A stretch of DNA of 64,000 nucleotides from NCBI GenBank assembly GCA_963848805.1, contig CAWKFD010000030.1, forward strand, positions 14,796 to 78,795, given 5' to 3'. Numbering within the stretch: the stretch's first letter is position 1; each line of letters begins with the position of its first letter. This DNA comes from an uncultured Acidobacteriaceae bacterium (GTDB taxonomy: Bacteria > Acidobacteriota > Terriglobia > Terriglobales > Acidobacteriaceae). The position numbers and the translations under genes were made by a program. Shown in pieces: positions 3,175 through 24,271 of this stretch. The notes beneath the pieces are model-generated. The model was not told the origin of the DNA and did not search any database. It worked only from the letters and a program-made list of their open reading frames with translations.

Positions 3175-3561
3175 ATGCATGTTCCAATTCCTGCGGTTAG
3201 TGAGGCGGCATTCGCCCGTGAGCGAGTACCTCTGAACCAGCGCAGGTTCCGGGACGACAATCGTGGAACTCCTGTGAGCGCACCGAGGCCAGCCTGGGCT
3301 CGGAACGCGCCAACTGCGTCGCTGGAGGGAATCGTGCTCCGTTGCTGGTTCAGTCTTGCGTTCGTATTACCACTGGTTGGCGTCGCGCTTAGACGCCGGC
3401 GTGCAGGCGGATTCGATCACCAGAGACTTTGGGCATCGAATGAGTTCGGGTTCGCACATGCCATCGAGGCGTATGAGGAACTGATCGATTCTCATGTGGC
3501 GTATGCCTCCACCCCAAGGACTAAGACCTGTCCCTGGGGACCCCGGTGGAGGCCAAGGTGA
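3175..3561 (+). CDS. Possible small hypothetical protein upstream of the glycosyltransferase
   Basis: Open frame (part of ORF 2986..3561) with one hydrophobic stretch. Its tail (TPRTKTCPWGPR) is translated from a palindromic repeat. No recognisable family. Confidence 0.25.
   Translation: MHVPIPAVSEAAFARERVPLNQRRFRDDNRGTPVSAPRPAWARNAPTASLEGIVLRCWFSLAFVLPLVGVALRRRRAGGFDHQRLWASNEFGFAHAIEAYEELIDSHVAYASTPRTKTCPWGPRWRPR
3507..3546 (-). repeat. REP-like palindromic element, family A
   Basis: Reverse complement CCGGGGTCCCCAGGGACAGGTCTTAGTCCTTGGGGTGGAG forms a hairpin and aligns with the two 42-bp units inside xerD (39954..40037). Confidence 0.75.
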
Positions 3562-4736
3562 GCCACGTTGCGATTGCGATTCCCGGCGTGGACCGCATTG
3601 GCGGCGCCGAACGGCAGGCGATGCTGCTGGCGAAGGGGCAGCGCGAGCGCGGCTGGCGGGTGAGCGTGGTGGCGCTTTCCGGCTGCGGCGGCGGCGCGGC
3701 AGCCAATGAATTGCGGAGCGCAGGCGTTCAATTCGTCAGCCTGGAAATGCGCAAGGGCCTTTGGGATCCGCGGGGATGGATTCGCTTCAATCGATGGCTT
3801 TGGCGCGAGCGGCCCGACGTGGTGCACGCGCACCTGCCGCACGCCGCGTGGCTGGCACGGTGGTCGCGGCTTGTTGCGCCTGACGCGGTGGTTGTGGACA
3901 CACTGCACAGTTCGCACACCGGAACGATGGGGCGGCGGGCCGGTTATCGCACCAGTAGCTGGCTAGCGGACCACGTAACGGCAGTGAGCCAGGCCACGGC
4001 GGAATCTCATCTTGCCGCAGGGATGGTGAGCGAAAAAAAACTGACCGTGCTCGGGAACGGGATCGAATTGGACGCCTGGCGGCCGGATGTGGCGGCGCGA
4101 ACCGCAGTGCGCCGAGAGCTTCGTCTGGCCGACGAGTTCTTGTGGCTGGCCGCGGGGCGTCTGGATCGGGTGAAGGACTATCCGACACTGCTGAACGCCT
4201 TTGTGAGTGCGCCTGCGACGGCGCGGCTTCTGATTGCGGGCACGGGGCCTCTCGAAGCCGAACTGGTGCAGCTTGCCAAGCGACTCGGCCTGGAGCAGCG
4301 CGTGCATTTTCTCGGCTTCGAGCCGAATGTGCGGCGCTGGATGCAGGCAGCAGATGGATTCGTGCTGTCGTCGCGCTACGAGGGCCTGCCGATGGTGCTG
4401 CTGGAGGCAGGCGCCTGCGGCTTGCCCGCCGTGGCCACCGATGTCGCCGGCACGCGCGAGGTGATTGTGAACGAAAGGACAGGGTGGCTGGCGCGCGCGG
4501 GCGATGCGAACGCGCTGGCGCAAGCCATGGCTAAGCTGATGCACGCGCCAGCCGAGGAACGGCGCGCCATGGGTGAACGCGCGCGCAGGATGGTGCGCGA
4601 GCGCTTCAGCATGGAAACCGTGCTCGACCGGTGGGAGCAGCTTTACGCTGAGTTGCTCGATCGGAAGAGCGCAGGGCGGCGGATGCGCCTAACCGTCCGC
4701 GAGGATTTGAGACGCCAGAGCGCCGCTTCAGCCTGA
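3546..4736 (+). CDS. Glycosyltransferase family 4 (GT-B fold)
   Basis: GGAERQ N-terminal motif, PDVVHAH, GRLDRVKDY, SRYEGLPMVLLEAGACGLPAVATDVAG (E-x7-E motif). Start codon uncertain. Confidence 0.92.
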   Translation: MEAKVSHVAIAIPGVDRIGGAERQAMLLAKGQRERGWRVSVVALSGCGGGAAANELRSAGVQFVSLEMRKGLWDPRGWIRFNRWLWRERPDVVHAHLPHAAWLARWSRLVAPDAVVVDTLHSSHTGTMGRRAGYRTSSWLADHVTAVSQATAESHLAAGMVSEKKLTVLGNGIELDAWRPDVAARTAVRRELRLADEFLWLAAGRLDRVKDYPTLLNAFVSAPATARLLIAGTGPLEAELVQLAKRLGLEQRVHFLGFEPNVRRWMQAADGFVLSSRYEGLPMVLLEAGACGLPAVATDVAGTREVIVNERTGWLARAGDANALAQAMAKLMHAPAEERRAMGERARRMVRERFSMETVLDRWEQLYAELLDRKSAGRRMRLTVREDLRRQSAASA

Positions 4737-5431
4737 AGGCGCTCAGGCAGGGTCAAGGTGGCAGGCTGAAACCGGAAGAGTACACGATCGAGGGAAGTGA
4801 ATTGAGCCGCGTGGGCGGCCAGAAAGCCGCATAATCGTTCAATGTCCGCGTCCGTTGCGGTGTTCGAGTGGATGCAGATGGTCCAGATACCTTTTCGCTT
4901 CTCTACAGGGCCCCAAAGCTGCTGCGGAATCCACATAATGCCGCCGCGGCGATGCGGCCTGCGCGCAAAACCGTCGGACAGCAGATGAATTCCTTCCGCG
5001 AGGAGAACGGCGAGCGTATGCGCATCGAAGCCGTGACGCGGAGCGACCCAAACTTTAGGGCTGAGGCCTTGGCTGCGGAGGATGTGCAGCCCGTGGTGGA
5101 TCCATGCGCGCTGCGTGTCGGGGGCGACGCCGGCAAACTCCGACGTGCGGTGGAGACCGAGCAGGCTGCGGCCGCGGCTGTGGCAGAGATGGCGGTAGCC
5201 GTGCAGGCCTATCGCGGCCCCGGCGGATTCGAGAGTGCGCATCTGGTGCCAGAAGGAGGGGTTGGGCGACGAGACTTGCAGGGCGGGGTCGCGATTTTGG
5301 GGAACGACGGCAAGAATCGGCTGCAGACGAAACTCTTCGATGAGGGACCGGAAGCGCCGCCAGCGCTCGCGAGAGACGGTCGGGCAGAGATCGTCGAAGC
5401 GAAGAAGATACTGTGCCGGGATTGGAATCAT
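4643..5431 (-). CDS. DUF2334/polysaccharide deacetylase-like protein
   Basis: C-terminal 262 aa of ORF 4643..6475 from ATG 5431 (ATGA overlap with the flippase stop): LLRFDDLCP, PILAVVP, IGLHGYRH, WVAPRH (NodB-like metal motifs). Confidence 0.78.
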   Translation of the reverse strand: MIPIPAQYLLRFDDLCPTVSRERWRRFRSLIEEFRLQPILAVVPQNRDPALQVSSPNPSFWHQMRTLESAGAAIGLHGYRHLCHSRGRSLLGLHRTSEFAGVAPDTQRAWIHHGLHILRSQGLSPKVWVAPRHGFDAHTLAVLLAEGIHLLSDGFARRPHRRGGIMWIPQQLWGPVEKRKGIWTICIHSNTATDADIERLCGFLAAHAAQFTSLDRVLFRFQPATLTLPERLQAEAALWRLKSSRTVRRIRRPALFRSSNSA

Positions 5432-6807
5432 TCGGATGCCTCCATTGTGGCCGCTCGCGCCAGAAGCTTTCGGCTCCAGTACCAGAGATAGAAGAACGTG
5501 CTGACGGTCCACAGCGATGTAGCGAGCGCGATTCCAGCCACGCCGAAACAGTGCATGAGCACGAGATTGAGCACAATATCGAGGCCGAGGTTGAGGATGC
5601 CGCAGTAGAGGACGAGATCGGTGCGGCGCATGGCAACCAGAAATCGGTAATAGACGCGGCTGGTGACAAAAAACGGAATCTGGATGGCGTACATGCCGAG
5701 CACCGAACCCACGACGGCGGTATCGCGCGGGCCGAAGTTGCCGTGCTGAAAGGCGATACGCACCAGCGGGCGCGCATTTGCGATGAGAGCGACGGCGACG
5801 GGGACCGAGACGAATGCGGTGAGCCTGACCCAGGCGCGAAGCGTGTGGCGGCAACCGGCCCAATCGCGGTGAGCGATCATGCGGGAAAAGTAGGGCACGA
5901 TGGCAGTGGAAACAGCGCCGGCCAGAAGCGTAACCACTACGCCCACGAAACGATTGGAATAGACCAGCGCAGAGACGCTGCCCGCAGGGAGCATGGCGGC
6001 CATCGACTGATCGACGAGCAGGCCGCCCGAAGCTACCACGCAGCTCAATAACACTGGGCCATATTGCCCGGCCACTTCGCGCGTGGCTTGGGTCATGCCA
6101 TACCACCGAAGGCGAAACCGATAGCCCCGCGCCTGCATCATGCAGGCGACGATCGTCGCGTGCATGAGCGAGCCGGCAAGAGTGGCGTAGACCATGGCCC
6201 AAATGCCGAATCGCGCGCCGAACAGGAGCGCGCCCGCAAGGACTGAAACGGAGATCACAATGGGCGCGAGGGCCGGAAGGGCGAAGCGATCGAGAGTGTT
6301 GAGAACCGCAGTGCAGTTGGTGGCGATGCCGGTGATGAGTACGATGGGCAGAAGACCGTAGAAGAGACGGACAGCGAGTTCGAGCTTGGCCGGCGGGAAG
6401 CGCGAAGCGATAAGCGGGAAGAAGCCATGAGCCAGAAGCGCCATCACCGCCGACGCTAGCCCCAAGAGCAGACACATCCAGAGCATGGAACTGGAGAGGA
6501 GTTGCTGCGCGCGATCGTGGCCCTCCTGTTCCCTCACCCGGACCAGGGTGGACACGAGCGCCTGATTCATGGACTCGGAAATGAGATTGACCAGCAGGCT
6601 GGGAATGAGCGCCGCGGCGAGAAAGGCGTCCATGGCGTCGGAGCGGCCATAGACCGAGGCAACCGCGATTTCCTTGAAGGTGGCGACGAGCTTGACTACT
6701 ATGCCGACGGCGCCGACCGACATAGCGGCGCGTAAGATGCTGCGATTGATGCCCGCGGCTCTATGGGGCGGAAAAATCTCCCGCCATCCTTGCGAAAGCG
6801 TCGACAT
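5428..6807 (-). CDS. MurJ/MviN-like (MOP superfamily) flippase within the polysaccharide locus
   Basis: 459 aa, about 12-14 TM helices; FKEIAVASVYGRSDAMDAFLAA, VDQSMAAML, GSVSALVYSNR resemble MviN motifs. Confidence 0.8.
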   Translation of the reverse strand: MSTLSQGWREIFPPHRAAGINRSILRAAMSVGAVGIVVKLVATFKEIAVASVYGRSDAMDAFLAAALIPSLLVNLISESMNQALVSTLVRVREQEGHDRAQQLLSSSMLWMCLLLGLASAVMALLAHGFFPLIASRFPPAKLELAVRLFYGLLPIVLITGIATNCTAVLNTLDRFALPALAPIVISVSVLAGALLFGARFGIWAMVYATLAGSLMHATIVACMMQARGYRFRLRWYGMTQATREVAGQYGPVLLSCVVASGGLLVDQSMAAMLPAGSVSALVYSNRFVGVVVTLLAGAVSTAIVPYFSRMIAHRDWAGCRHTLRAWVRLTAFVSVPVAVALIANARPLVRIAFQHGNFGPRDTAVVGSVLGMYAIQIPFFVTSRVYYRFLVAMRRTDLVLYCGILNLGLDIVLNLVLMHCFGVAGIALATSLWTVSTFFYLWYWSRKLLARAATMEASE

Positions 6808-7143: not shown

Positions 7144-8388
7144 TTATGTAACATATGGTGTTACACCTCCACAAGCTTGAAGAGTCTCGCGAATCGGATG
7201 CCGGACGCGAGGCGACGCTCGAAAAGAGGCGGCGAGACCGTTTGGATCTTCGGTTGCAAGGCGCGCGGCGAGGGCAATTACGGCAAAAAGCAGCCATGTG
7301 GTCCGGCTCTCCTCGACAGTGGCGGCGAGCGATGTGACAGCCCAAGCCGACAGCGCCGTAATCAGAGTCACGCGTAGTGGGCCATGAGTTTCGATCGCGG
7401 AGCACGCGGCCAGAGCGACGAGGAGAGTGGCCAGAGACAAAGCGCAGAGCCCTCCGCCAACAGCAATCGAAAGCGCTGTATTGTGCGCCGTGTCGATGGG
7501 TGACAGATGCGCGGCGGCGACGAAAGAGCCGGCGCCCGTGCCGAATAGCGGCGCATGGATAAAGGCACGCCAGCCGGCAGACCAGATGTTGAGCCGCTGA
7601 TTCAGATCGCCGCTTCGCAGTTGCTCGGGGATGGTGGCGAGGCGAGCGAAGGTGGCGCTGGGAACGATGAACCAGAGCGCAGCCAGAAAGGGCGGCAGGG
7701 CAAAAACTCCGGCCACCACACGCCCAGGGTGGCCCCGCGTGAGGAGAACGGCGGAGCCGGCAAGCGCGACCAGCGCAGCCAGAAACCCCGAGCGCGAAGC
7801 AGTGAGGAGCACGGCGACGAGGCCCACAGGCAAAAACCCGAGAGCCAACAGGCGGGCGAGCTTGGTGTGCTCGCACTCCAGGAGCAGAGCCGCGAATGGA
7901 AAGCCGAGATCGAGAAAACGGGCAACATCGTTGGGATCCTGACCATAGGCGGCAAAGCGGAACTGGCCCGCGGCAATGGCTTCAGGCGAGCGGAAGGCAA
8001 CCAGAGTGAGGGCAGCCAACACCCACGAGCCGGCCACGAAGGCACGCAAAAGGCCGCGCAGATCGGCCGGGGTATCGGCAAATTCCCAAACCAGCCAGAC
8101 GATCATTACTTCCTGAAAGGAAGAGCGGATTTTTTCGAGCGTCGCGGCGTCGTCGATGGTCCAGAAATAGGAACAGCAGATCGAGAGATACAAGACAAGC
8201 GTGAGCCAGCAGAACGCGCCGGGATTGCGCATGCGACCGGCCTGAAAAACTGCCGGAACGGCGGCTAGAAGCGCGAGCAGACCCGCGATGCGGGCCACGT
8301 TGCCCAGCGGTTCGCCGAGATCGAGGGAGTACTCCCAAGGGATGGCGAAGGCGAAGACGAGGAGCAGAACCCACGCGATACGGCGCAT
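7144..8388 (-). CDS. O-antigen ligase/Wzy-type polysaccharide polymerase
   Basis: Starts MRRIAWVLLLVFAFAIPWE at ATG 8388; multi-TM, with QDPND, LTASRSG, RLNIW, PLFGTGAGSF and AHNT motifs of the Wzy_C family. Confidence 0.85.
   Translation of the reverse strand: MRRIAWVLLLVFAFAIPWEYSLDLGEPLGNVARIAGLLALLAAVPAVFQAGRMRNPGAFCWLTLVLYLSICCSYFWTIDDAATLEKIRSSFQEVMIVWLVWEFADTPADLRGLLRAFVAGSWVLAALTLVAFRSPEAIAAGQFRFAAYGQDPNDVARFLDLGFPFAALLLECEHTKLARLLALGFLPVGLVAVLLTASRSGFLAALVALAGSAVLLTRGHPGRVVAGVFALPPFLAALWFIVPSATFARLATIPEQLRSGDLNQRLNIWSAGWRAFIHAPLFGTGAGSFVAAAHLSPIDTAHNTALSIAVGGGLCALSLATLLVALAACSAIETHGPLRVTLITALSAWAVTSLAATVEESRTTWLLFAVIALAARLATEDPNGLAASFRASPRVRHPIRETLQACGGVTPYVT
7147..7165. promoter_or_regulatory. 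Perfect inverted repeat TGTAACA-N5-TGTTACA, probable HigA operator
   Basis: Seen directly about 20-40 bp upstream of the higA start; overlaps the last codons of the wzy-like gene. Confidence 0.6.
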
Positions 8389-8399
8389 AGCAGCTCCTG

Positions 8400-10939
8400 C
8401 TAATACCTTGTTGAGTAGACCAGTGCAGAGTAGATGGTGACGCCGATGGTGGATTGAATTGCGGACTCGAGGGTCCGGTTCACTAAATTCCTGGCCACAG
8501 AATCGGGCACGTAGAGGATGTCGCGATCCTCGACGGGACTGATCGGGGTCCTGTCCGTGCAACATGCGTTTGAGATTGAGGGCGATCATGGTACGGCCGC
8601 CCTTCTGTCCGCGAATCAGCACTGCCCTGCCGGCCGCAGCGTTTTGCGACGGTCCCCAAGCCAGCGAGAGCGCCTGCACTGCAGTGAGGCCCTGCACCGG
8701 ATCGACAGCAAAACCCCCAGGGCGGATCACATCGCCGACCACGTAGACGAGGCCGGCACGGCTCACCTGAACGGTGTCGCCGGGGCTGAGCTCGGGATTG
8801 TGATCGGCTGTGGTGTCGGTTCCACTGGGGTCGAGCACGACCGGGTGAGCCGTCTTGGGATCGGCCTGATGAAACACGTTGACCAGGCGGCCTGCATTGG
8901 GCGAAAGACCCGAGGCAGCGGAGATGAGGTCGAGCAGCCGATGATGGTAGGTGTAGGGATAGACACCGGGACGTGTCACTTCGCCCAGAACGCTCACATC
9001 CTGGCCGGCGTAGCCGGTGACCAGCACCGAGACCAGCGGATGCAGAAGCATGCCCTTGGCAAGCAGAGCGGCCTCAATGGCGCGTGCGGCGGATTGCTCG
9101 TCCATTGCGGAGACATTGACTTCGCCGATCATGGGCAGGATGACGGCGCCGGCGGCGGAGACGCGCACGGCTGAGTGAAAATCCGGGGTGTGATATTCGC
9201 TGACGTCGAGAAAGTCGCCGGGACCGATGGGCGCGGGCATGGGCGAGGAGGATTGTGCGACTGGCGGCACGCCGGCAGTTCCTGGGGCGCCCGGGCTGTT
9301 CCAGACCGCCGGCGCTTCCCTGGGGTTAGGCAGACTCCTGGTCTGCGGTCGTCTGCGGAAAACTGGCGACACCCGTCGGCAGGCCCGAGGTGCTGGGCGT
9401 GGGCGCCTGCGCATGGATTGAAGCGCCCGCCGCGAGCAACGCGAACAGCGCCGCCGTGGCTACGGGACGGCTGAGCGATTCGCGTAAAAGCGCGGCCCCA
9501 GCCGCAAGCCAGAGTCCCACAAAGAAGGTGATGGCAAGATAGAGCGGCAGATCGGGCGCAACGGGCTTGACCGGCTGGCGGGCATAGTCCACGACCGAGA
9601 TGTTCGAGCCATGAACGCCAGCGGCCAAACCGGCTTCCTCGGCCTTTTCGAGCACGCGCATGTACACATCGTGGCTGGCGTTGGCCTCCTGGCGCATGAC
9701 GGCATATTCGGTTGCGGCCTGGTTCAGCTTCATGCCTTCGCCGGTCGACTTGTTCCAGGCTCTTGCGGACCAATTGCTCGCGATCGAGGGCGGTTTGCCA
9801 GTTGCTGCGGAAGCGCTCGACAAGTTTGGCGTCCTCGGCCTGTTTCTGTCGGTCGAGATCCTGCAACTGGCGGCCGATCTCGACGACGCGGGGAAAGCTG
9901 GGGCCGTGCTCGGCGCTGAGCTGGGCCTGTTCCTGTTCGAGATCGCTGCGGCGGGCGTGAATCTGCTGTAAGAGCGCAGTGGCAAAGTTGCCGCCCTCGG
10001 CTTCGAGGCGGGGATCGGAGGCGACGACCATCTCCGGGTCGCCCTGGGAGGCGGCGCGATACTCGGCCTCGCTCAGAATACGGTCGGTGGTTGCGGTCAC
10101 GAGCTGGCGGCTGAGTTCATCGAGTCTCGAGCAGCGCCGAGCTGTGCTCGGTTTCGCCCGGCTGGCCGTTGGCCAGAATCTCTGGCGTGCTCACGAGGCC
10201 GTGATGACTCTCGAAGTCGGCGAGGCGCTGCTGGTCGCGGTCGACGCGAGTCTTCAGGTCGCCAAGTTGGGCGCCGAGCCAGCCGGATGCCTGCGCCGTG
10301 GCCTGAATCTGGGATTCGCTCTCCTGGTCGCTGTAGGCGCGGATGAGCGCGTTGACCACGGAGGCCGACAGGGCGGCGTCGCGGCGAGCGAAATCGGATC
10401 TCAACCAGTAAGGTGCGCGGAATAGTCTGCACGTTGAGCCGCCTTGAGAATCTTTCGAGAAGCCATGCCTGAGCGTCGGGCGAGGGCACGTCGGGACGGA
10501 AGCCCGGGAAGCGGCTGTCAAAGCTCCCGCGGAAACCGGGCGCCTGGTAGAGCTTGAGCCCGGTGATCACGCGCCATGCTAGCTGGTCGCTGCGCAGAAC
10601 GCTGGCCAATGTTTCCAGCGCCATAGGCGCGGAGAGAATGGAGGCCGAGGCCAGAGATTCCTGCGGCTCGAGACTGAGCGAGGAGACCGGCGCTGTGCGC
10701 AGTTCGACACGGGCGGCCGCTTCGTACTGATTGGGCGCTATGAGGCAAAAGAGGAGGCACGCCACCAGCAGGGCGCCTTCGATCACCGCGATGAGGCGGC
10801 GTTGGCGCCAAAGAAGCTGCCAGAGGCCGCGGAGGGATGTGGTGGCAGATTGGCCGGGCTCAGTTGCGGGGTGCGGCACGTAGCCGTTCGGCGATGCTTC
10901 CTCGACAGACAGTAATTCCGGCAAGAGCAGGACCCTCAC
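8400..10939 (-). CDS. Polysaccharide co-polymerase (Wzz/GumC-like) fused to an OPX/Wza-like export domain (Poly_export + SLBB); five +1 frameshifts
   Basis: Reconstructed across ORFs 10097..10939, 10117..10521, 9129..10100, 9326..9985, 7144..9414 and a last frame ending TAG at 8400-8402. Frames step by one base each time, and 2540-5=2535 nt = 845 codons. PCP features: TM1, YEAAARVEL, coiled coils, HGPSFPRV, VVDYARQPVKPVAP, TM2. OPX features: IGPGDFLDV, G.VILPMIG, VSVLGEVTRPGVY, VYVVGDVIRPGG. Confidence 0.75.
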
Positions 10940-11331: not shown

Positions 11332-12301
11332 TCAGAGTTTCCCTAGGTCTTCTATTGAAGCCTTATACCATTTGACGGTGCGGCTGAGCCCCTCGCGGAA
11401 ATCGACCCGAGGCTCATAGCCAAGCAGTTTCCGGGCCAGGCAAATGTCGGCCAGGGAGTGGCGGATATCGCCGGCGCGCGGCTCCGCATAGGCCGGCTTG
11501 CCGCGATAGCCAGTCAGGCCGCAGAGAATTTCAAAGGTTTGGTTGAGCGTGATCGCGGCCCCGGTGGCCAGGTTCATGCTCGTGCCGGAGACCTTTTCCG
11601 CCGGGGCGGCGGCGGCCAGCAGGTTCGCTTCGACCACGTTGTCGATATAGGTAAAGTCGCGGCTTTGCTCGCCGTCGCCATAGATGGTAGGCTGTTCGCC
11701 GGCCAGCATCTTGCGGCAAAAGATAGCCAGTACGCCCGAGTAGTGAGAAGTCGGGTCCTGGTGCGGGCCAAAGACGTTGAAGTAGCGGAGGGTGACGGTC
11801 TCGAAGCCCATAGACGCGCATGAAGGCGCGCAGGTAGTGCTCACCGGCCAACTTGGCCACGGCATAGGGAGTGATGGGTAGGGGGAGCATCTCCTCGTGC
11901 TTGGGCAGCGTGGGCGTGTCACCATAGATCGACGAAGACCCGGCGTAGACCACGCGGCGCACACCGGCGTCGCGGGCGGCCACGAGCAGGTTGAGCGTTG
12001 CGTCCACGCAGTTGCGATTGGTGGCTGCGGGATCGGCTACCGAGCGCGGAACCGAGGCCAATGCCGCCTCGTGAAAAACAACCTCAACGCCCGCGCAGAC
12101 CCTGGCGCAGACCGCCGGATCGGCCAGGTCGCCCTCGACGAACTCCATCGCCTCGAGGCCAACGAGGTTGGCAGGCTTGCCGGTAATGAAGCTGTCGACG
12201 CCCCGGATCGTGCCCCGCACCGTGCCGCCTCGATTGAGCAGGGCCGCGGCAATGGAGCGGCCAATAAAGCCGGCGGCTCCCGTGACAAGATATTTGGGCA
12301 A
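11332..12301 (-). CDS. NAD-dependent epimerase/dehydratase (UDP-hexose/HexNAc 4-epimerase, extended SDR), one +1 frameshift near 11805
   Basis: LVTGAAGFIG, HEAALASVPRS, YAGSSSIYG, YAVAK (YxxxK) in ORF 11531..12301; LRYFNVFGPHQD and GDGEQSRDFTYIDNVV in ORF 11332..11964. Confidence 0.9.
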
Positions 12302-13672: not shown

Positions 13673-14797
13673 TTACGCTACCAGCGCCATCTCGCGGATG
13701 GTTTCCTTGCGCACCGTCAACCGCTCGATAAGATCTGTTCGAACCTCATAGCCGCGGCCGAGCGTGTCGGGAATCGCGATGTCGCCTTGCGGTGAGACAG
13801 TAACCTCGGGCTCGATAATGTCGTCGGCCCAGTAACGCGCCGATGCCGAAACATCGCCGGGCAGGCTAAAGTTTTCGAGGGTGGAGAGCGCGATGTTGTG
13901 CGCTCGGCCGACGCCGGACTCAAGCATGCCGCCGCACCAGACGGGAATTCCGCGCTCCAGCGTGGCGTTGTGCACGGCGATGGCCTCGGAAAAGCCGCCC
14001 ACGCGCCCCAGTTTGATGTTAATGATCCTGCACGACTCCATCTCGATTGCCGCCAGCGCATCGCGGCGGTTGTGGATGGATTCATCGAGGCAGATGGGCG
14101 TTTCCAGGCGTCGCTGCAGCACAGAGTGGAAGTAGAAGTCGTCGTGCCACAGGGGCTGCTCGATCATGAGCAGGTCGAAGGCGTCAAACGATACCAGATG
14201 GGCTTCATCGCGCATGCGATAGGCCGAGTTGGCGTCGCAACTGAGCATGATGCCGGGCCAGCGGTGGCGAACCCGCTCGAAAACTTCCACATCCCAGCCG
14301 GGCTTGCACTTGAGCTTGATGCGCCTGTAGCCGGCGGCCAACTCGCGCTCAACGACGGAAAGCAACTCTGGAATCGAGGACTGGATGCCGATGGAGGCAC
14401 CGCAAGGAATGCTGTCGCGAACGCCGCCGAGCAAACGGGAAAGGGAGATGCCTTCGCGCTGCGCCTCAAGATCCCAGATGGCATTTTCGAGAGCAGCTTT
14501 TGCCATGTGATTACCGCGCACCTGGCGGAAAATGCGCGGACAATCTCCACCATGCTCAGGGAACTCCGCGGCCAGCATCGGGCCTAACTCGCGGACGAGA
14601 ACCTGCCAAGCGGTATCGGTCGATTCGCCGGAAAAAACCGGGCGCTCGCCTGCAGTGCATTCTCCCCAGCCGGTGAGCCCTTCGGAGCGAATTTCGGCCA
14701 GCAGAATTCTCCGGTTGAGGGTGACGCCGAAGCTGGTTTCAAACGGCCGCACCAGCGGCATGTGCAGTTCACGCAGAATGACAGCGTCAATTCTCAT
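13673..14797 (-). CDS. menC: o-succinylbenzoate synthase / N-succinylamino acid racemase (enolase superfamily)
   Basis: PFETSFG, GWGEC, KLK (RIKLKCKPG), DAN, EQP, LDES, NIKLGRVGG, WCGGMLESGVG: the NSAR/OSBS subfamily pattern. Confidence 0.85.
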   Translation of the reverse strand: MRIDAVILRELHMPLVRPFETSFGVTLNRRILLAEIRSEGLTGWGECTAGERPVFSGESTDTAWQVLVRELGPMLAAEFPEHGGDCPRIFRQVRGNHMAKAALENAIWDLEAQREGISLSRLLGGVRDSIPCGASIGIQSSIPELLSVVERELAAGYRRIKLKCKPGWDVEVFERVRHRWPGIMLSCDANSAYRMRDEAHLVSFDAFDLLMIEQPLWHDDFYFHSVLQRRLETPICLDESIHNRRDALAAIEMESCRIINIKLGRVGGFSEAIAVHNATLERGIPVWCGGMLESGVGRAHNIALSTLENFSLPGDVSASARYWADDIIEPEVTVSPQGDIAIPDTLGRGYEVRTDLIERLTVRKETIREMALVA

Positions 14798-15671
14798 CTA
14801 TTCCTCGTCTCATATTTTCGGCCTCTGAGTGAGACTCCTTATGGGTAGGGAAACCCAGTTCGAAGACTCCATTTCCTTCCGCATCCCGCGAAAAGCCAAG
14901 TACGGCCAATCCCCTGGAGAATGCCTGTTGAAACCTCTGTCGATTCTCCAACTGAACGGCGAGCGCGCGTTCCCGGTCTGTTGGGTTGGCTTTCCACTGC
15001 TCAATGGAAGCGGGGACCAGAATCCGCTCCTCTATCGCGTGCCTGGCAATCGTGCGGCACTCAAAACTGGCCTTTACCCTTGGGGAATCCAGCTCCCACT
15101 CCGCCAAAAGCCGGTCGGTCGGGAGCCCACCTTGCAGTCGAGATGAGGATACACCATAGAAATCCACAAGATATGCAGAAGAGATGGCTCCCAACCTGTG
15201 GATATTCAGAAACGCGTTCTTGATCTGCAAAGGGTCGAAGGTCCACTCGATGTGTCGAATGCCGCGGGAAAGCGCCTCACGCCGTTGTTCCCACTTGAGT
15301 TGCGCGCCAAGACCGCGATTGCAGTGGGAAGGGCGGACAGCCAGCATGTGGGAATGGAGGTAAGGGCGTGGACCGTTTTCGCTTTTCTTGATTCCGGGCA
15401 AAGACATGGCGAAACCGGCGAGAAATTCCCCTCCTCGCTCGCACTCTTTGCCGTCCGCTGCGCTCGGCGCGGCCGCTTGGTTCTTGCCTTTCTCCGCTGC
15501 TCCCTCGCTCCCTGTCTCGAAAGCGCCGATCACCTGGCCGCCGATTTTTTGCGCGAGCAAGAAGGCTTTGCGAGGGATGACATCCTTTTCGTCGTAGCCC
15601 CAGGTCTCGATCTGGAGCTCGACGCAGGCCTCCATCTCGCCGAATCCCGCACACGCGCGAATCTGGATCAT
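14787..15671 (-). CDS. GNAT-family acyltransferase (putative amino-acid N-succinyltransferase)
   Basis: GGQVIGAF, YLHSHMLAV, RGLGAQLKWEQR, IEWTFDPLQIKNAFLN, TDRLLAEW; overlaps the OSBS/NSAR gene. Confidence 0.8.
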   Translation of the reverse strand: MIQIRACAGFGEMEACVELQIETWGYDEKDVIPRKAFLLAQKIGGQVIGAFETGSEGAAEKGKNQAAAPSAADGKECERGGEFLAGFAMSLPGIKKSENGPRPYLHSHMLAVRPSHCNRGLGAQLKWEQRREALSRGIRHIEWTFDPLQIKNAFLNIHRLGAISSAYLVDFYGVSSSRLQGGLPTDRLLAEWELDSPRVKASFECRTIARHAIEERILVPASIEQWKANPTDRERALAVQLENRQRFQQAFSRGLAVLGFSRDAEGNGVFELGFPTHKESHSEAENMRRGIDEN

Positions 15672-16657
15672 GGCTGCGCCTGCGATGCGTGATTGGAGGG
15701 CGAATCGAGGGCGGCTGCTTCATGGTTTGCGAGTGTCTTCTTGGCCTGCGCCCAAAGCGCTTCCAGTTCATCGGGAGAAAGGTCTTCGAGCGGCCGCGGG
15801 GTGGTTCGCTCCATTTCAATAAAGCGGCGGCGGAAGCGCACATTGCATTTGCGCAAGGCCATCTCCGCGTCGACGCCCAGATGACGGCCGAGGTTGACGA
15901 CGGTAAACAACAGATCGCCCAGCTCCGCCTCGACGGCCGGCTTGCGCGCGGGGTCAGTTGAAGAGGCTTCAGCTTCCAGTTCCGCGGTCTCCTCAGCCAG
16001 CTTTGGCAATAGCTCACGCCAGCTGGGCCAGTCGAAGCCAGATTTTTTCGCCTTGGCGCCGAGCTTGGCTGCTTCAGCCAGCGCAGGCATCGCGCGGTGC
16101 ACGCTGTCGAGCCGCGAAGCTGGTTGATTCCCTTCCCTGATTCCTTGAGAATCCGCAGCGGATGTAGCGGACGCATGTTTTTCGGAGGCTTTGATTTGTT
16201 CCCAGTTGCGCAGCACTGCCGCAGCCGAGCCCTCGACTTCGGGATTCACATCCGCCCTGTTTCCGGCTGCGCGCGATGCCTCGTCGCCAAAGACGTGAGG
16301 ATGGCGGCGCACCAGCTTTCGGTTCAGGTGGCCGAGCACATCGGCAATAGTGAAATGGCCCTCGTTGGCCGCCATCTCCGCGTAGAAGAGAACTTGCAGG
16401 AGCAGGTCGCCGAGCTCTTCCGACAAGTGGGAAAAGTCGCTGCGCTCGATGGCGTCGAAGACCTCGTAGACTTCTTCCAGCGTGTATTTGCGGATGGAAT
16501 CGAAGGATTGCTCGCGGTCCCAGGGGCAGCCGCCAGGAGCGCGGAGGCGGGCCATGATGGCCACGGACTGCTCAAACAGCGCTGCCGCCCGCGCCGGATC
16601 GGTGATGGTTTGCGGCGTGGGATCTTTCGCACTGGAGCCAGCTCGAGGAAGATCCAT
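15668..16657 (-). CDS. mazG: Nucleoside triphosphate pyrophosphohydrolase MazG
   Basis: LRAPGGCPWDREQ, EEVYEV, EELGDLLLQV, RRHPHVFG and a second ELGDLLF domain. Confidence 0.93.
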   Translation of the reverse strand: MDLPRAGSSAKDPTPQTITDPARAAALFEQSVAIMARLRAPGGCPWDREQSFDSIRKYTLEEVYEVFDAIERSDFSHLSEELGDLLLQVLFYAEMAANEGHFTIADVLGHLNRKLVRRHPHVFGDEASRAAGNRADVNPEVEGSAAAVLRNWEQIKASEKHASATSAADSQGIREGNQPASRLDSVHRAMPALAEAAKLGAKAKKSGFDWPSWRELLPKLAEETAELEAEASSTDPARKPAVEAELGDLLFTVVNLGRHLGVDAEMALRKCNVRFRRRFIEMERTTPRPLEDLSPDELEALWAQAKKTLANHEAAALDSPSNHASQAQP

Positions 16658-16707
16658 GCACCTTCAGTTTAACCTGCCGAGAACGGCGGCGCCGACGCAC
16701 AGGGCTG

Positions 16708-17670
16708 ATGGAAACCGGCGTCAAAACCGCATCATGGGATTCAGTGCCGATGGCGTATACTCACTCTGCAATGATCCGCACCTACCTAACTGCATCGGCA
16801 GGGCTTATCGGGCTGCTGTTTGGCAGCTTTTTGAATGTTTGCGCCACGCGCTGGCCGGAGGACGAGAGTGTAATCAAGCCGCGTTCCCACTGCCGGAGCT
16901 GCAATCGGATGCTGGCTTGGTGGGAAAACCTGCCGCTGGTGAGCTGGCTGGCGTTACGGGGACGCTGCCGGAGCTGCAGAGCATGGATTGGGTGGCGGTA
17001 TCCGTTGGTGGAACTGGCCGTCGGAGTCCTTTGGGCGTTCGTCGCGTGGCAATTCTTCAACGCGCACCCTGTACCGGACTTGTCTGACTTTCACTATTCG
17101 CTTGGCTTGGCGGATAGCGTCGCGCTGATGATTTTTCTGTGGCTGCTCGTGGCCCTGGCGGTTTTCGATGTCGAGAATCTTTGGCTGCCCGATCGGCTGA
17201 TCTGGCCTGGCATCGGCCTGGGTTTCGTTGTGGCTGTAACAAGAGCCACTCTGGATGCGTTTTTGAATCTAGGTCGTGGTTTTGAAGTCTTGAAACACAT
17301 GGTCGCATCGGGAATCGTCATTTACTGGTTTCCCAGCGCCGTGTTCTCCGCGGCAGTCCTCGTGGTCATCCGCTGGTTTTACCACATAATCCGCGATCAG
17401 GAGGGAATCGGCTGGGGCGATGTAAAGCTGATGGCAATGTTGGGCGGATGGATTGGCGTCAAGGGCGCACTACTATCTTTCGCATTGGGTGTGGTGGCGG
17501 GCGCAGCGTTTGCACTGTTTCTGCTTGCGTCGCCGTCAGTGCGCCACAGTAAAAAGGGTTGGAAGGCAAAGAAGCTGCCCTTGGGGACGTTCATTTGCCT
17601 GGGCGGCATTGTAAGTGGTCTGTGGGGTCAGACCATCATCGCTAACTATATGAATTGGGCGGGGTTCTGA
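16708..17670 (+). CDS. pilD: Prepilin peptidase (A24) with N-terminal Cys domain
   Basis: GSFLNVC, PRSHCRSC, NLPLVSWLALRGRCRSC, YPLVEL, D..LWLPD, GWGDVKL, PLGTF. Start may be 16750 or 16771. Confidence 0.88.
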   Translation: METGVKTASWDSVPMAYTHSAMIRTYLTASAGLIGLLFGSFLNVCATRWPEDESVIKPRSHCRSCNRMLAWWENLPLVSWLALRGRCRSCRAWIGWRYPLVELAVGVLWAFVAWQFFNAHPVPDLSDFHYSLGLADSVALMIFLWLLVALAVFDVENLWLPDRLIWPGIGLGFVVAVTRATLDAFLNLGRGFEVLKHMVASGIVIYWFPSAVFSAAVLVVIRWFYHIIRDQEGIGWGDVKLMAMLGGWIGVKGALLSFALGVVAGAAFALFLLASPSVRHSKKGWKAKKLPLGTFICLGGIVSGLWGQTIIANYMNWAGF

Positions 17671-21927: not shown

Positions 21928-23781
21928 CTATTTCGGTTCGACGAATCGCACCCTCACAGCGTCCCCTGAGCCTTCGATCGTCGAGGTCTCAGAGCTTCCA
22001 CGAATCGCGACAAACAGTCGCAGAGCGGGATGATGAGTAAACACGTTCGCGGCGGCATCTTCGCCGATGCCCATCAGAGTGCCCTCGGCTCCGCTTTCGT
22101 AGGTCACGCCCAGTGGGGTCATCGCACCCCCCGCACCGAATTGAACGCCCGTCCCGGAGAACCCGCCAGCGGTAGATTGGTTCGCCGACTGGGCTGCCTG
22201 CGACGACGCGCCCAGCAGGGATCGCATGCGCATCATGCGGGGAGACAACTCTGCCGCGGCAAACTCGGTACTTCCATCGGTAATCTCGGACAGCCGCGTC
22301 AAGGGGCGCGCTTTGGAGGTGTAGAAAACGAGATCGGTGCCAAGCGACTGAATGACGCTCAGTTTGGCTGCGTCCACCTCAACCGGATTCGCGGTGGCAT
22401 CGAGAAGGAAATTCGCAGCCTTGGTTTGGTGTGCCTCCTGCGCACTCGCCAGCGCGGTTTGGAATTTGTTGTCTGTCACTGCAGGCGAGGCGCCGTTTTC
22501 AAGCAGCACGGCAAGAGCATCTACATTCCCCCAGTGGGCGGCAATATGCAGAGCCGTGATCCCATCCTTGGTCTGCGCGTGTACGTCGGCGCCTGCCTTG
22601 ATCAGGGTCCGGAGCGCGTCTGCACCACTTTTTTGCGCAGCAAAGTCCAGAGGGGTCCATTGGTTCACGTCGCGGGCATTGACGTCGGCCCCAGATTCGA
22701 TCAAGACCTTCAATGTTTCGACGCTCCCCGATGACGCTGCGTTGTGAATGGCCATGACACCGCCCTTGTTTTTTGCCTGGCTGTCTGCTCCTTTTGTTAT
22801 CAGAAATCGAACCATCTCGGCGCGCCCGAAATAGGCGGCATTCAACAACGGGGTTCCACCCGCATCCGACGCGGAGTTGATGTTTGCCCCCGCGGCCAGA
22901 AGGAGCTTGGCCGATTCCACGTCCCCCGAAGCCGCAGCATAATCCAACACAGGAGAGCCGTCTGCGCCCCTGGCGTCTACGTTGGCCTTGTGCGCCAGAA
23001 GAATGCTTACGACATCAGGGTGCCCCTGCACGGCCCAAAATAGCGGGGTCGCTCCGTTTTTGCTGCGCCCGTCGACCTGAGCGTTGTGGGCCAGCAACCA
23101 ATTCACCATTTCCGTCCGTCCCTTCGCCGCGGCGTGCGCAAGCGGCGTTCCAAGGCTGTTGTCCGCGCGATTCACGTCGGCGCCGGCGGCGACGAGCAGT
23201 TGGGCTGCTGCAACGGTCCCCTGGTCGGCGGCATCAATCATTGGCGTCCAGCCGTCGTTATCGGCAGAGTTGATATCCGCCTTATTGGCGAGTAACAAAG
23301 CGATCGTATCCCTGTGGTCCTGGGTAACTGCGAAAAAGAGCGGCGTGCGGCCCTGGTCGTTACGGAAGGATGCAAAATCAGGAATGCCCTTCAGCAGAAC
23401 GGTCAGTTCATCGGTGGTAAGTGCAGGAAGGAGCTTCAGGACGAGATCCTTGCGGACCTCGGCGTCCTGGGTGTTCGCAGCCACCCGGACCATCCCGGGA
23501 CGGTCAGAGTGGGACTCGATCTCCCGGATGCCTCGGGGCATCATAGGCTCTTTCGTCGCGCCAAAATGCAATGCGCTTTCCCGTGCAGCGATTTCGTAAA
23601 GGTCGTCACACGCTTTCGGCTCCGCCCGCTGATAACACTTTTCCGCATACTTCTCGGCCTTGCGGGGGTCCTGCGCGGAGGATGCGGAGGGAAGCACGAG
23701 CATCAGGCCTCCAATCAAAAGAAGGGAGCGTACGCCGATTGTGCGGTAGCGCTGAGCAGCGCGATCGATTTCTTCAAACAT
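21928..23781 (-). CDS. Secreted ankyrin-repeat protein (about 9-10 repeats)
   Basis: Signal-like N-terminus (LLLIGGLMLVLPSASSA-Q); repeats such as GRTPLFFAV, GWTPMIDAA, GTPLAHAA, GATPLFWAV, WTPLDFAA, GITALHIAA. Confidence 0.88.
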   Translation of the reverse strand: MFEEIDRAAQRYRTIGVRSLLLIGGLMLVLPSASSAQDPRKAEKYAEKCYQRAEPKACDDLYEIAARESALHFGATKEPMMPRGIREIESHSDRPGMVRVAANTQDAEVRKDLVLKLLPALTTDELTVLLKGIPDFASFRNDQGRTPLFFAVTQDHRDTIALLLANKADINSADNDGWTPMIDAADQGTVAAAQLLVAAGADVNRADNSLGTPLAHAAAKGRTEMVNWLLAHNAQVDGRSKNGATPLFWAVQGHPDVVSILLAHKANVDARGADGSPVLDYAAASGDVESAKLLLAAGANINSASDAGGTPLLNAAYFGRAEMVRFLITKGADSQAKNKGGVMAIHNAASSGSVETLKVLIESGADVNARDVNQWTPLDFAAQKSGADALRTLIKAGADVHAQTKDGITALHIAAHWGNVDALAVLLENGASPAVTDNKFQTALASAQEAHQTKAANFLLDATANPVEVDAAKLSVIQSLGTDLVFYTSKARPLTRLSEITDGSTEFAAAELSPRMMRMRSLLGASSQAAQSANQSTAGGFSGTGVQFGAGGAMTPLGVTYESGAEGTLMGIGEDAAANVFTHHPALRLFVAIRGSSETSTIEGSGDAVRVRFVEPK

Positions 23782-24271
23782 GCCAAGCCCCTCCTTACGG
23801 GCCGAAGGTCTGCTGAGTTCTCGTTTTCGGGAACCTGAATCCTCGCTTCATCGAGGATTGTGAACCTCGACCGCGCGGTTACAGGTTGAGTCATTCCCCG
23901 CAAGGTCCCACTCTGTGACCGAGTGAAAATCGCCTGCGCAGCCAGGGCGTTTCGTCCGGAAGTTGATCTTCCCAGCGATCCGGCTCTTTCAGCACTTTCA
24001 AGTTGCCTGCCATTGAGTGTGCACAGCAAGTATATCCATTTGCTGTAGCTTGGCAAAAAGCGATTTCCGAGGCGCGTGGCCGATCGCTGATCTCTCGCAA
24101 TTCTTCCCCGCTCGCTTCGATCTCACGGGCCCTGCCGAGGCGCAGGGCGGCAGATTCAAGCCGACGGCGTGACCCGGTCCCTCGTTCCATTTTGCACAAA
24201 AAAAGAAAAGCGGGAGAGCTGGTTGGCTCATCCCGCATAAAAGTGGCTTGGGAAGCCGCTACGTTCAAAAC

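What the first reader, a model, noticed from the sequence alone, without database searches (positions are those of the whole stretch)
8400..10939. Polysaccharide co-polymerase fused to its OPX export protein in one polypeptide, with an internal signal-peptide-like linker
Seen: removing five single extra bases gives one 844-aa ORF. The junction itself lies in one uninterrupted frame (ORF 9326..9985): PCP TM2 (LPLYLAITFFVGLWLAAGAALL), then RESLSRP, a third hydrophobic segment ending in an SPase-I-like site (VATAALFALLAAGASIHA-QAP), then the Poly_export/SLBB region. There is no Wzc tyrosine-kinase domain and no lipobox Cys. Established: in Wzx/Wzy systems PCP (Wzc/GumC) and OPX (Wza/GumB) are separate proteins that form a trans-envelope complex. 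Inference: either a covalently tethered periplasm-spanning conduit, or a polyprotein cleaved by signal peptidase to fix 1:1 stoichiometry. I know of no characterised example but could not search.
Basis: partly seen in the sequence, partly recalled or inferred. Interest (0 to 1): 0.75.

Follow-up and report, generated by a model that had tools for sequence, protein, structure and literature searches.

The report
Fused polysaccharide co-polymerase and exporter gene
A peat-soil Acidobacterium encodes its inner-membrane sugar-chain co-polymerase and its Wza-like export protein as one gene, joined through the exporter's own secretion signal; the fusion is real and conserved in at least 80 related species, and the five reading-frame breaks in this copy look like sequencing errors.

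Summary
Observation confirmed. On the minus strand of 8400-10939, Wzz, GNVR, Poly_export and SLBB pieces lie in frames 0>1>2>0>1>2. Removing five single bases gives an 844-aa protein that is colinear with intact 840-850-aa ORFs.

The fusion is real. About 22 genomes of the same genus (Terracidiphilus) hold the junction in one open frame. The 80 best of 241 matching species genomes match full length, and more than 1500 database proteins are related.

The breaks are probably assembly errors. The genome carries about 0.11 isolated one-base frame breaks per kb in conserved genes, almost all extra bases.

The "third hydrophobic segment" is the exporter's own type I signal peptide. It aligns with the N-terminal signal peptides of free-standing relatives. 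It is the fastest-evolving part of the protein, yet position -1 is Ala or Gly in 118 of 119 homologues, followed by Gln.

My best reading, inferred and not shown, is a precursor cut by signal peptidase I into a kinase-less co-polymerase and a free exporter in matched amounts. A permanent tether is not excluded.

More distant fusions exist, some with an intact-looking tyrosine kinase between the halves. I found no paper describing such fusions. Verdict: a new variant of a known system, of moderate interest.

The parts
8400..10939 (-). Whole fused gene (PCP - internal signal peptide - OPX). It gives 844 aa once five single extra bases are left out. Start is GTG 10939, or TTG 10924 as in the G020 orthologue. 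Stop is TAG 8402-8400.
10736..10795 (-). TM1 of the co-polymerase (LIAVIEGALLVACLLFCLIA). It follows a cytoplasmic N-terminus with an RRQRR-type positive patch.
   Evidence: helix 31-62 in the AF2 model of the orthologue
10562..10840 (-). Wzz (PF02706) chain-length-determinant domain.
9545..10735 (-). Periplasmic, mostly alpha-helical PCP domain. It contains frame breaks 1-3.
   Evidence: AF2 model; Foldseek hits to Wzc, WzzE and KpsE; phmmer hits to Wzc 7nhr and 9r62
9479..9697 (-). GNVR (PF13807) motif region, running into TM2.
9485..9544 (-). TM2 of the co-polymerase (LYLAITFFVGLWLAAGAALL). It is well conserved: 0.87 mean pairwise column identity in 106 homologues.
9464..9484 (-). Short cytoplasmic loop RESLSRP. 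It doubles as the positively charged n-region of the internal signal peptide and stands where Wzc-type proteins carry the tyrosine kinase.
9410..9463 (-). Internal signal peptide: h-region VATAALFALLAAGA and c-region SIHA. The predicted signal peptidase I site is IHA|Q, between 9410 and 9409.
   Evidence: It aligns with N-terminal signal peptides of free OPX relatives. Position -1 is A or G in 118 of 119 homologues, and the h-region is the least conserved part at 0.46.
9368..9409 (-). Conserved 14-residue stretch QAPTPSTSGLPTGV, which would be the new N-terminus after cleavage. Function unexplained.
9232..9367 (-). Pro/Ser/Thr/Gly-rich stretch, predicted disordered. It contains frame break 4.
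   Evidence: pLDDT below 50 for residues 501-564 of the orthologue; a similar stretch is present in free OPX relatives
9019..9231 (-). Poly_export (PF02563) domain.
8764..9003 (-). First SLBB domain (PF22461/PF10531).
8499..8760 (-). Second SLBB domain (GLVYVVGDVIRPGGF ... DILYVPDS). It contains frame break 5.
8403..8498 (-). C-terminal tail of about 31 residues, predicted helical (VARNLVNRTLESAIQSTIGVTIYSALVYSTRY). It may be the counterpart of the outer-membrane helix of Wza.
   Evidence: AF2 helix 812-842. Full-length Wza aligns over 306 columns against 272 for Wza24-345. There is no Pfam Wza_C hit even at E=10.
10384..10384 (-). Extra base 1 (frame 0>1), within a few nt.
10125..10125 (-). 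Extra base 2 (frame 1>2), within a few nt.
9746..9746 (-). Extra base 3 (frame 2>0), within a few nt.
9349..9349 (-). Extra base 4 (frame 0>1), within a few nt.
8538..8538 (-). Extra base 5 (frame 1>2), within a few nt.
7147..8388 (-). Next gene downstream: Wzy_C / O-antigen-ligase-like membrane protein, the likely polymerase. Its ATG (8388) lies 11 nt after the stop of the fused gene.
11332..12301 (-). Upstream gene: NAD-dependent sugar epimerase/dehydratase, itself split by one frame break.
3525..6760 (.). Rest of the small polysaccharide locus: a GT4 glycosyltransferase (3525-4733, +) and a DUF2334-containing ORF (4646-6760, -).

Best explanation
The gene encodes a precursor made of two proteins that are normally separate. 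The first is a kinase-less polysaccharide co-polymerase (N-in, TM1, helical periplasmic domain, TM2). The second is a Wza-like OPX exporter (Poly_export, two SLBB domains, C-terminal helix).

The joint is the exporter's own type I signal peptide. After TM2 returns the chain to the cytoplasm, the 7-10-residue positive loop and the 12-15-residue hydrophobic stretch re-enter the membrane. They carry the OPX half into the periplasm.

Signal peptidase I then most likely cuts after the small-x-small motif (IHA|Q in the window). This releases a mature OPX that assembles with the co-polymerase ring. The cell thereby makes both partners of the 8:8 trans-envelope channel in equal numbers and at the same place.

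Shown:
- the fusion is real and conserved;
- both halves belong to their families;
- the joint is homologous to free OPX signal peptides and keeps their cleavage-site pattern.

Inferred:
- the membrane topology;
- the cleavage itself;
- the stoichiometry rationale.

The five frame breaks in the window copy are most likely consensus errors of a long-read metagenome assembly, not biology.
For: Reality of the fusion:
- About 22 same-genus genomes hold the junction in an unbroken 842-915-aa frame. Three intact ORFs of 840-849 aa were read directly, and all carry Wzz+GNVR+Poly_export+SLBB.
- 1537 related proteins were found. The 120 best listed (79% identity or more) all carry GNVR with Poly_export and SLBB in one protein.
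- 241 species genomes encode a relative. The 80 best loci returned match full or nearly full length, and come from independent peat, bog and fen projects.

The joint is a signal peptide:
- The N-terminal signal peptides of free OPX relatives align with it, for example P0179 MKAILGAVLLVLSSAGAMFA|QAP.
- In 119 close homologues, -1 is A in 109 and G in 9. Position -3 is L, I, T, A or V; -2 is H, R, Y or Q; +1 is Q.
- The h-region has the lowest conservation of the protein: 0.46, against 0.87 for TM2 and 0.88 for the OPX half.
- The same small-x-small|Q pattern is present in every distant fused lineage examined, including those with a kinase domain in front of it.

Identity of the halves:
- Foldseek hits Wza 2j58 (E 5e-17) and the Wzc chains of Wza-Wzc complexes 9r64 and 9r68. 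phmmer hits 9n9a, 2j58 and 7nhr.
- NCBIfam ranks EpsE and EpsF highest.

Stoichiometry: the PslD-PslE OPX-PCP complex purifies at about 1:1 (PMC13434223).

Assembly errors:
- tblastn of 88 long G020 ORFs on this genome gave 21 frame switches in 136 kb. About 15 in 131 kb lie outside this gene, and 19 of the 21 are +1.
- They are isolated one-base insertions outside homopolymers, in otherwise 75-90% identical genes.
- The five inserted bases share no motif.
Against: - No experiment or proteomic datum shows cleavage. No signal-peptide predictor was available here.
- L or I at -3 (83 of 119) is tolerated by signal peptidase I but is not the preferred residue.
- The hydrophobic stretch sits only 7-10 residues after TM2, so the two could insert as a stable helical hairpin.
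- The 14 residues after the site are strongly conserved in the fused clade only. Cleavage alone does not explain this.
- This gene has 5 frame breaks in 2.5 kb against a background of about 0.11 per kb. The errors would therefore have to be locally clustered, although other clusters of 2-3 do exist. Reads could not be examined.
- The nearest intact homologue is only 93% identical. No same-species intact copy was found to settle the question of error against pseudogene.
Confidence: 0.6

Rival explanations
1. The fusion protein is not cut. The hydrophobic stretch serves as a permanent third transmembrane helix. Each OPX protomer stays covalently tied to its co-polymerase protomer through the disordered linker of about 65 residues, giving a single-chain trans-envelope conduit.
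For: - One ORF is conserved for a long time in many species.
- A disordered stretch of about 65 residues follows the segment. Fully extended it could span roughly 200 A (my estimate).
- There is no lipobox to anchor the OPX in the outer membrane.
- The 14 residues just after the putative site are highly conserved in the fused clade only. They could be a structural element at the membrane surface.
Against: - The segment behaves like a signal peptide. It is short (12-15 hydrophobic residues) and fast-evolving (0.46 identity), yet A or G at -1 is kept in 118 of 119 homologues. A plain membrane anchor has no need of that.
- It is homologous to cleavable N-terminal signals of free OPX relatives, which have the same long Pro/Ser/Thr-rich stretch. 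The linker is therefore not an adaptation to tethering.
Confidence: 0.25
2. The window copy is a true pseudogene. This strain has lost the fused gene through five real one-base insertions.
For: Five breaks in 2.5 kb is about 18 times the genome's background rate. The flanking Wzy-like and GT4 genes show none. Polysaccharide loci are often variable between strains (general knowledge).
Against: - Apart from the five bases, the gene is undamaged. It is colinear with an intact homologue of the same 844-aa length, and it is as similar to relatives (80-93%) as its neighbours are.
- The same kind of isolated +1 insertion hits about 12 of 86 long conserved genes genome-wide, with other clusters of 2-3.
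- Bacterial pseudogenes usually accumulate deletions, stops and larger damage, not only single-base insertions (general knowledge).
Confidence: 0.15
3. There are two separate genes, and an assembly indel in the RESLSRP region hides the co-polymerase stop codon and the exporter start.
For: Dropping one C from CGTCCCGTA would create CGT CCG TAG, a stop right after RESLSRP (read). The assembly does contain extra bases.
Against: About 22 genomes of the genus, the 80 best species loci, and three ORFs read directly are open across this point. Their loop sequences differ, and there is no conserved start codon in front of the hydrophobic stretch. The DNA alignment to G020 shows no one-base gap there.
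Confidence: 0.02
4. The +1 breaks are decoded biologically, by programmed +1 frameshifting or four-base codons.
For: All five breaks in this gene, and 19 of 21 genome-wide, go the same way (+1).
Against: The five sites share no sequence motif, and the extra bases differ (C, A, G, A, T by alignment). Orthologues in other genomes have plain triplet frames at the same places.
Confidence: 0.01

Closest known systems
E. coli Wzc-Wza trans-envelope complex (group 1 capsule / colanic acid; PDB 2j58, 7nhr, 9r64; PMC12881504, PMC13469938)
   Same: The two families and folds are the same. The PCP has two TM helices and a helical periplasmic domain. The OPX has Poly_export, two SLBB domains and a C-terminal helix. 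The presumed end state is also the same: an OPX ring stacked on a PCP ring.
   Different: Here there is one gene instead of two. There is no tyrosine-kinase domain on the PCP and no lipoprotein signal on the OPX. The OPX signal peptide is internal, and there is no Pfam Wza_C match.
EpsF / EpsE (with the separate kinase EpsG) of the Methylobacillus-type EPS system (TIGR03017, TIGR03028), and GumC / GumB of Xanthomonas (the latter from my own knowledge)
   Same: A kinase-less co-polymerase works with a short OPX. These are the best-scoring NCBIfam models for the two halves. A possibly free-standing tyrosine kinase exists elsewhere in this genome (C24).
   Different: The scores lie far below the equivalog cut-offs (131 against 263 bits, and 99 against 423), so the halves are not members of those exact families. 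In those systems the proteins are separate.
Class-3 OPX systems of Myxococcus xanthus (WzaB-WzcB-WzpB; PDB 9n9a; PMC12819527, PMC9603273)
   Same: This is the best sequence match among solved structures (9n9a, E 2e-16). By Pfam architecture it is Poly_export-SLBB without Wza_C, which is the definition of Class 3 in PMC9603273.
   Different: WzaB is a lipoprotein that needs acylation and a beta-barrel porin partner. Here there is no lipobox, no porin gene in the locus, and a predicted 31-residue C-terminal helix.
Bacterial and viral polyproteins split by signal peptidase at an internal signal peptide: FbcH cytochrome b/c1 precursor of Bradyrhizobium (from my own memory, not retrieved here); flavivirus structural polyproteins (PMC7601889)
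   Same: The proposed logic is the same. A membrane protein is followed in the same chain by an exported protein that keeps its signal peptide. The host signal peptidase separates them, which fixes equal synthesis.
   Different: The proteins are unrelated. Cleavage is demonstrated there and only inferred here.
PCP-(pseudo)kinase-OPX triple fusions noted earlier in this scan in Verrucomicrobiota (e1-4988049, e1-2135668), and kinase-bearing fusions found here (P0168, P0143, P0147)
   Same: The order of parts is the same, and the same internal signal peptide ending small-x-small|Q is present.
   Different: Those carry a P-loop kinase or pseudokinase of about 250 residues between TM2 and the signal peptide. 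The window's type has only 7-10 residues there. On an OPX-domain tree its clade sits inside free OPX proteins, apart from the kinase-bearing fusions.

Membership tests
Polysaccharide co-polymerase (PCP) | Wzz (PF02706) domain at the N-terminus and a GNVR-type motif before TM2 | tested here: met
   Repaired window protein: Wzz 27.4 bits (cut-off 25.5) and GNVR 40.8 bits (cut-off 27.7). The same holds in intact orthologues.
Polysaccharide co-polymerase (PCP) | Two transmembrane helices flanking a long alpha-helical periplasmic domain | tested here: met
   AF2 model: helices 31-62 and 458-482 flank a helical domain with pLDDT mostly 85-95. Foldseek hits Wzc, WzzE and KpsE.
PCP-2a (Wzc-type) | C-terminal cytoplasmic BY-kinase domain (AAA_31/CbiA, Tyr cluster) | tested here: not met
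   No P-loop family hit in the window protein or its orthologues. Only 7-10 residues lie between TM2 and the signal peptide. Distant fused relatives do carry the domain.
Outer-membrane polysaccharide export protein (OPX) | Poly_export (PF02563) followed by at least one SLBB domain | tested here: met
   Poly_export 43.9 bits and SLBB_2 49.8 bits, two SLBB stretches. Foldseek hits Wza 2j58 at E 5e-17.
OPX Class 1 (Wza-like) | C-terminal Wza_C (PF18412) amphipathic outer-membrane helix | tested here: inconclusive
   No Pfam hit even at E=10. However, AF2 predicts a 31-residue terminal helix, and full-length Wza aligns over about 34 more columns than helix-less Wza24-345.
OPX Class 3 (WzaB-like) | No outer-membrane-spanning domain; N-terminal lipidation; a beta-barrel porin partner encoded nearby | tested here: inconclusive
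   The Pfam architecture fits. But there is no lipobox and no porin-like gene in the window locus or in the 15 kb beyond it.
Wza-type lipoprotein | Lipobox with Cys at +1 of the signal peptide | tested here: not met
   +1 is Gln, and there is no Cys in the c-region of the window copy. The Cys seen in some homologues' hydrophobic stretches is not in lipobox context.
Type I (signal peptidase I) signal peptide | Positive n-region, hydrophobic core of 7-15 residues, small residues at -1 and -3 | tested here: met
   The window has RESLSRP / VATAALFALLAAGA / SIHA|Q. Position -1 is A or G in 118 of 119 homologues, and -3 is aliphatic or small. Tested by rule only; no predictor was available.
Signal-peptidase-processed polyprotein | Demonstrated cleavage into two mature proteins | not testable with these tools
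   Needs a Western blot, N-terminal sequencing or proteomics.

The most novel reading that the evidence does not exclude
The chain is not simply cut and released. One possibility is that it stays whole, so that every protomer physically links the inner membrane to the outer-membrane export ring. The other is that cleavage is deliberately slow, so that each exporter protomer is templated in cis on its own co-polymerase protomer before release. In the second case the strongly conserved 14-residue QAPTPSTSGLPTGV stretch, found only in the fused clade, would act as the docking element. Either way this would be a natural single-chain assembly device for a trans-envelope polysaccharide machine.
Probability: 0.22. 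Interest if true: 0.8.

Novelty: new variant of a known kind. Interest (0 to 1): 0.55.

Why it matters
How the inner-membrane co-polymerase and the outer-membrane exporter find each other and keep an 8:8 ratio is a current question. The first Wza-Wzc and PslD-PslE complex structures appeared only in 2026.

A natural fusion is "Rosetta-stone" evidence that the two act as an obligate 1:1 pair. It also offers a ready-made construct for co-expression and structural work.

If the joint is cut, it would be one of very few bacterial polyproteins processed by signal peptidase. It has apparently arisen more than once: with a kinase, without one, and in another phylum according to earlier notes.

The gene is found in at least 80 species-level genomes of peat-soil Terracidiphilus and related Acidobacteriaceae. 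Extracellular polysaccharide of such bacteria may matter for carbon storage and soil structure (my inference; not examined here).

Tried and rejected
- **Hidden stop at the junction.** I checked all three frames by eye and against homologues. Rejected.
- **Four-base codon or programmed +1 frameshift.** The five sites share no motif. Rejected.
- **Nanopore errors at a methylated TCGA motif.** Three of the five sites lie near TCGA, but only 11 of 89 genome-wide gap sites do. Dropped.
- **Homopolymer errors.** The extra bases are not in homopolymers.
- **Linker as a purpose-built tether.** Free OPX relatives have a stretch of similar length and composition.
- **Conserved internal start codon for a free OPX.** None is seen in front of the hydrophobic stretch.
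- **Porin, flippase or initiating transferase next to the gene.** None was found in the window's first 30 kb or in the 15 kb of contig before the window.
- **LPxTG sortase motif in GLPTGV.** It has only four residues (LPTG), so it is not a match.
- **Literature.** The Cuthbertson 2009 MMBR review is not held. Seven full-text searches found no description of a natural PCP-OPX fusion.
- **Taxonomy of the distant fused proteins.** The cluster look-up gave no organism names.
Full report
**What is in the window**

Between 8400 and 10939 on the minus strand, six ORF pieces follow one another in frames 0, 1, 2, 0, 1, 2. Pfam assigns Wzz to the first piece and GNVR to the fourth. Poly_export and two SLBB hits fall on the fifth, whose open frame runs on into the next gene, a Wzy_C membrane protein.

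It comprises TM2 (9485-9544), RESLSRP (9464-9484), VATAALFALLAAGASIHA (9410-9463) and then QAPTPSTS....

A DNA alignment with the intact orthologue of genome G020 shows exactly five one-base surpluses in the window, near 10384, 10125, 9746, 9349 and 8538. There is no one-base gap at the junction. This protein passes all five Pfam families. It aligns end to end with intact database proteins, at 93% identity to P0060 and 87% over 100% of the 844-aa P0028.

**Is the fusion real?**

Yes. A 144-aa query across the junction found, in about 22 other genomes of the same genus, a match inside an unbroken open frame of 842-915 aa. I read three of these ORFs directly (843, 849 and 840 aa). All carry Wzz, GNVR, Poly_export and SLBB.

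- The large protein collection holds about 1540 relatives. The 120 best listed in each of two searches carry GNVR together with Poly_export and SLBB in one protein. They bear generic names such as [quoted passage not shown].
- Among species-representative genomes, 241 encode a relative. The 80 best loci returned match full or nearly full length. All are metagenome-assembled genomes from peat, bog and fen, produced by independent projects and sequencing technologies.
- In a sample of 201 genomes from about 142 genera of the family, the junction is continuous only in the window's genus and two others. Elsewhere the exporter sits in its own frame of 320-420 aa.

It therefore came out negative.

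**The frame breaks**

I translated 88 long ORFs from 340 kb of the G020 relative and laid them on the window's own genome. They gave 21 frame switches in 136 kb of aligned coding sequence.

- Outside this gene there are about 15 in 131 kb, affecting about 12 of 86 genes that are otherwise 60-90% identical.
- Nineteen of the 21 are +1.
- At DNA level they are isolated single extra bases outside homopolymers.

A living genome does not carry broken copies of one in seven long conserved genes, so these are consensus errors of a noisy long-read assembly. This gene has five breaks in 2.5 kb, far above the mean, but other genes also have clusters of two or three. Apart from the five bases the gene is undamaged. 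I put assembly error at about 0.8 and a real pseudogene at about 0.15. The five sites share no motif, which excludes four-base decoding or programmed frameshifting.

**What the joint is**

I aligned fused proteins with kinase-less free co-polymerases and free OPX relatives. In that alignment the N-terminal signal peptides of the free exporters fall exactly on the "third hydrophobic segment". An example is P0179, MKAILGAVLLVLSSAGAMFA|QAP. P0153 is the sister of the fused clade and has MRWNRRVVLAAIVLAFAASCPWCADVRA|QEV. The segment is therefore the exporter's ancestral signal peptide.

In 119 close homologues the hydrophobic core is very variable, but position -1 is Ala in 109 and Gly in 9. Position -3 is Leu, Ile, Thr, Ala or Val; -2 is His, Arg, Tyr or Gln; and +1 is Gln.

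Mean pairwise column identity in 106 full-length homologues:

| Region | Identity |
|---|---|
| Signal-peptide hydrophobic core | 0.46 |
| Loop | 0.50 |
| TM1 | 0.71 |
| TM2 | 0.87 |
| Periplasmic PCP domain | 0.81 |
| OPX half | 0.88 |

Fast drift of the core with a fixed small residue at -1 is the signature of a cleavable signal peptide, not of a packed membrane helix.

The Pro/Ser/Thr-rich stretch of about 65 residues behind the site is modelled as disordered. It also exists in the free relatives, so it is not a tether invented for the fusion.

**More distant fusions**

An exhaustive HMMER search of 1.8 billion representatives with Pfam scans found further fused proteins.

- P0122 (54% identity), P0180 and P0209 (28-29%) have the same kinase-less architecture.
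- P0168, P0143, P0147, P0152 and P0182 (roughly 980-1100 aa) carry a tyrosine-kinase-type P-loop domain between TM2 and the exporter. In P0168 and P0143 I could read Walker motifs and a C-terminal Tyr cluster.
- Each of them has a short hydrophobic stretch ending in small-x-small|Q just before Poly_export.
- The nearest free kinases to P0168 are from Acidobacteriaceae.

On a tree of the exporter halves, the window's clade nests among free exporters. It is separate from the kinase-bearing fusions, and P0180 and P0209 group with kinase-bearing ones. This suggests at least two fusion events and one kinase loss. The tree is a quick one, unrooted, and its sample of free exporters is biased towards relatives of the query.

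Earlier notes of this scan describe PCP-pseudokinase-OPX fusions in Verrucomicrobiota with the same reading. I did not verify their taxonomy.

**Structure**

An AlphaFold2 model of the intact orthologue (mean pLDDT 77.7) shows these elements in order:

| Element | Residues | Confidence |
|---|---|---|
| TM1 | 31-62 | |
| Helical periplasmic domain | | confident |
| TM2 | 458-482 | |
| Signal-peptide helix | 487-505 | low |
| Disordered stretch | 501-564 | pLDDT below 50 |
| Poly_export plus two SLBB domains | 574-808 | confident |
| C-terminal helix | 812-842 | |

Foldseek ranks E. coli Wza first (2j58, E 5e-17). The Wzc chains of the Wza-Wzc complexes follow, then WzzE and KpsE. Full-length Wza aligns over 306 columns against 272 for the helix-less construct. 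The tail may therefore correspond to the outer-membrane helix of Wza, although Pfam Wza_C does not match. Class 1 against Class 3 remains open.

NCBIfam ranks EpsE (exporter) and EpsF (kinase-less chain-length determinant) highest, far below their cut-offs. The genome has one full Wzc-like gene and one possibly free-standing tyrosine kinase elsewhere.

**How it most likely works**

- Shown: the architecture, the family membership of both halves, and the homology and pattern of the joint.
- Inferred: the topology. The N-terminus is in the cytoplasm, TM1 goes out, the periplasmic domain follows, and TM2 comes back in. The short positive loop stays in the cytoplasm and the signal peptide goes out again, carrying the exporter into the periplasm.
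- Inferred: signal peptidase I cuts after IHA. The mature exporter, identical in kind to that of its free relatives, assembles above the co-polymerase ring.

The benefit would be equal synthesis and co-localised insertion of the two partners of an 8:8 machine. PslD-PslE purifies at about 1:1 (PMC13434223).

I give this reading about 0.6 as a whole. A permanent tether gets about 0.25. It is supported mainly by the unexplained conservation of the 14 residues after the site, which occur only in the fused clade.

**Context**

The locus is small. It holds an epimerase (11332-12301, with one frame break), the fused gene, a Wzy_C-type polymerase or ligase (7147-8388), a DUF2334 ORF and a GT4 transferase. 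No flippase, initiating transferase or porin lies nearby.

**Novelty**

Seven full-text searches and six papers read gave no description of a natural PCP-OPX fusion. The papers included the OPX class survey, which scanned only OPX domains, and the 2026 structural papers. The MMBR 2009 review could not be read.

The architecture is abundant in databases under generic names and has been noted by this scan in another phylum. I file it as a new variant of a known kind, with interest 0.55.

Noticed in passing
whole genome (G000), e.g. window 11332-12301: The assembly carries about 0.11-0.15 isolated one-base frame breaks per kb of conserved coding sequence, and 19 of 21 are extra bases outside homopolymers. 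Any 'split gene' or 'pseudogene' seen in this genome should be treated as a likely artefact first.
   Followed up: yes
window 9368-9409 (-): QAPTPSTSGLPTGV, directly after the predicted cleavage site, is as conserved as the folded domains (0.89). It occurs only in the fused clade, not in the nearest free OPX relatives. No function is known.
   Followed up: partly
proteins P0168, P0143, P0147, P0152, P0182 (metagenomic; not in the window): Triple fusions of Wzz-GNVR, a tyrosine-kinase-type P-loop domain, then Poly_export-SLBB (about 980-1100 aa), with an internal signal peptide after the cytoplasmic kinase domain. Walker motifs and a Tyr cluster are readable in P0168 and P0143. The nearest free kinases are from Acidobacteriaceae.
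   Followed up: partly
G045:C7:78245-78583 (same family, another genus): An OPX-domain match lies inside a 1085-aa open frame. It may be a kinase-bearing fusion within the same bacterial family.
   Followed up: no
window 21931-23847 (-): A 639-aa protein made almost entirely of ankyrin repeats, which is unusual for a free-living soil bacterium.
   Followed up: no
contig C30:3-1811, about 13 kb before the window start: An ORF that looks like a group II intron reverse transcriptase/maturase at the contig end (recognised by eye from the sequence; not run against Pfam).
   Followed up: no
G000:C24:130484-131029: A tyrosine autokinase domain (TIGR01007, above cut-off) in an open frame of only 355 aa. 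It may be a free-standing kinase that could serve the kinase-less fused co-polymerase.
   Followed up: no
L013 (G020) 14746-17103 (-): In the G020 relative, the epimerase upstream of the fused gene lies at the end of a 785-aa open frame. Only residues 475-785 match the window's epimerase. It was not checked whether the first 470 residues are coding.
   Followed up: no
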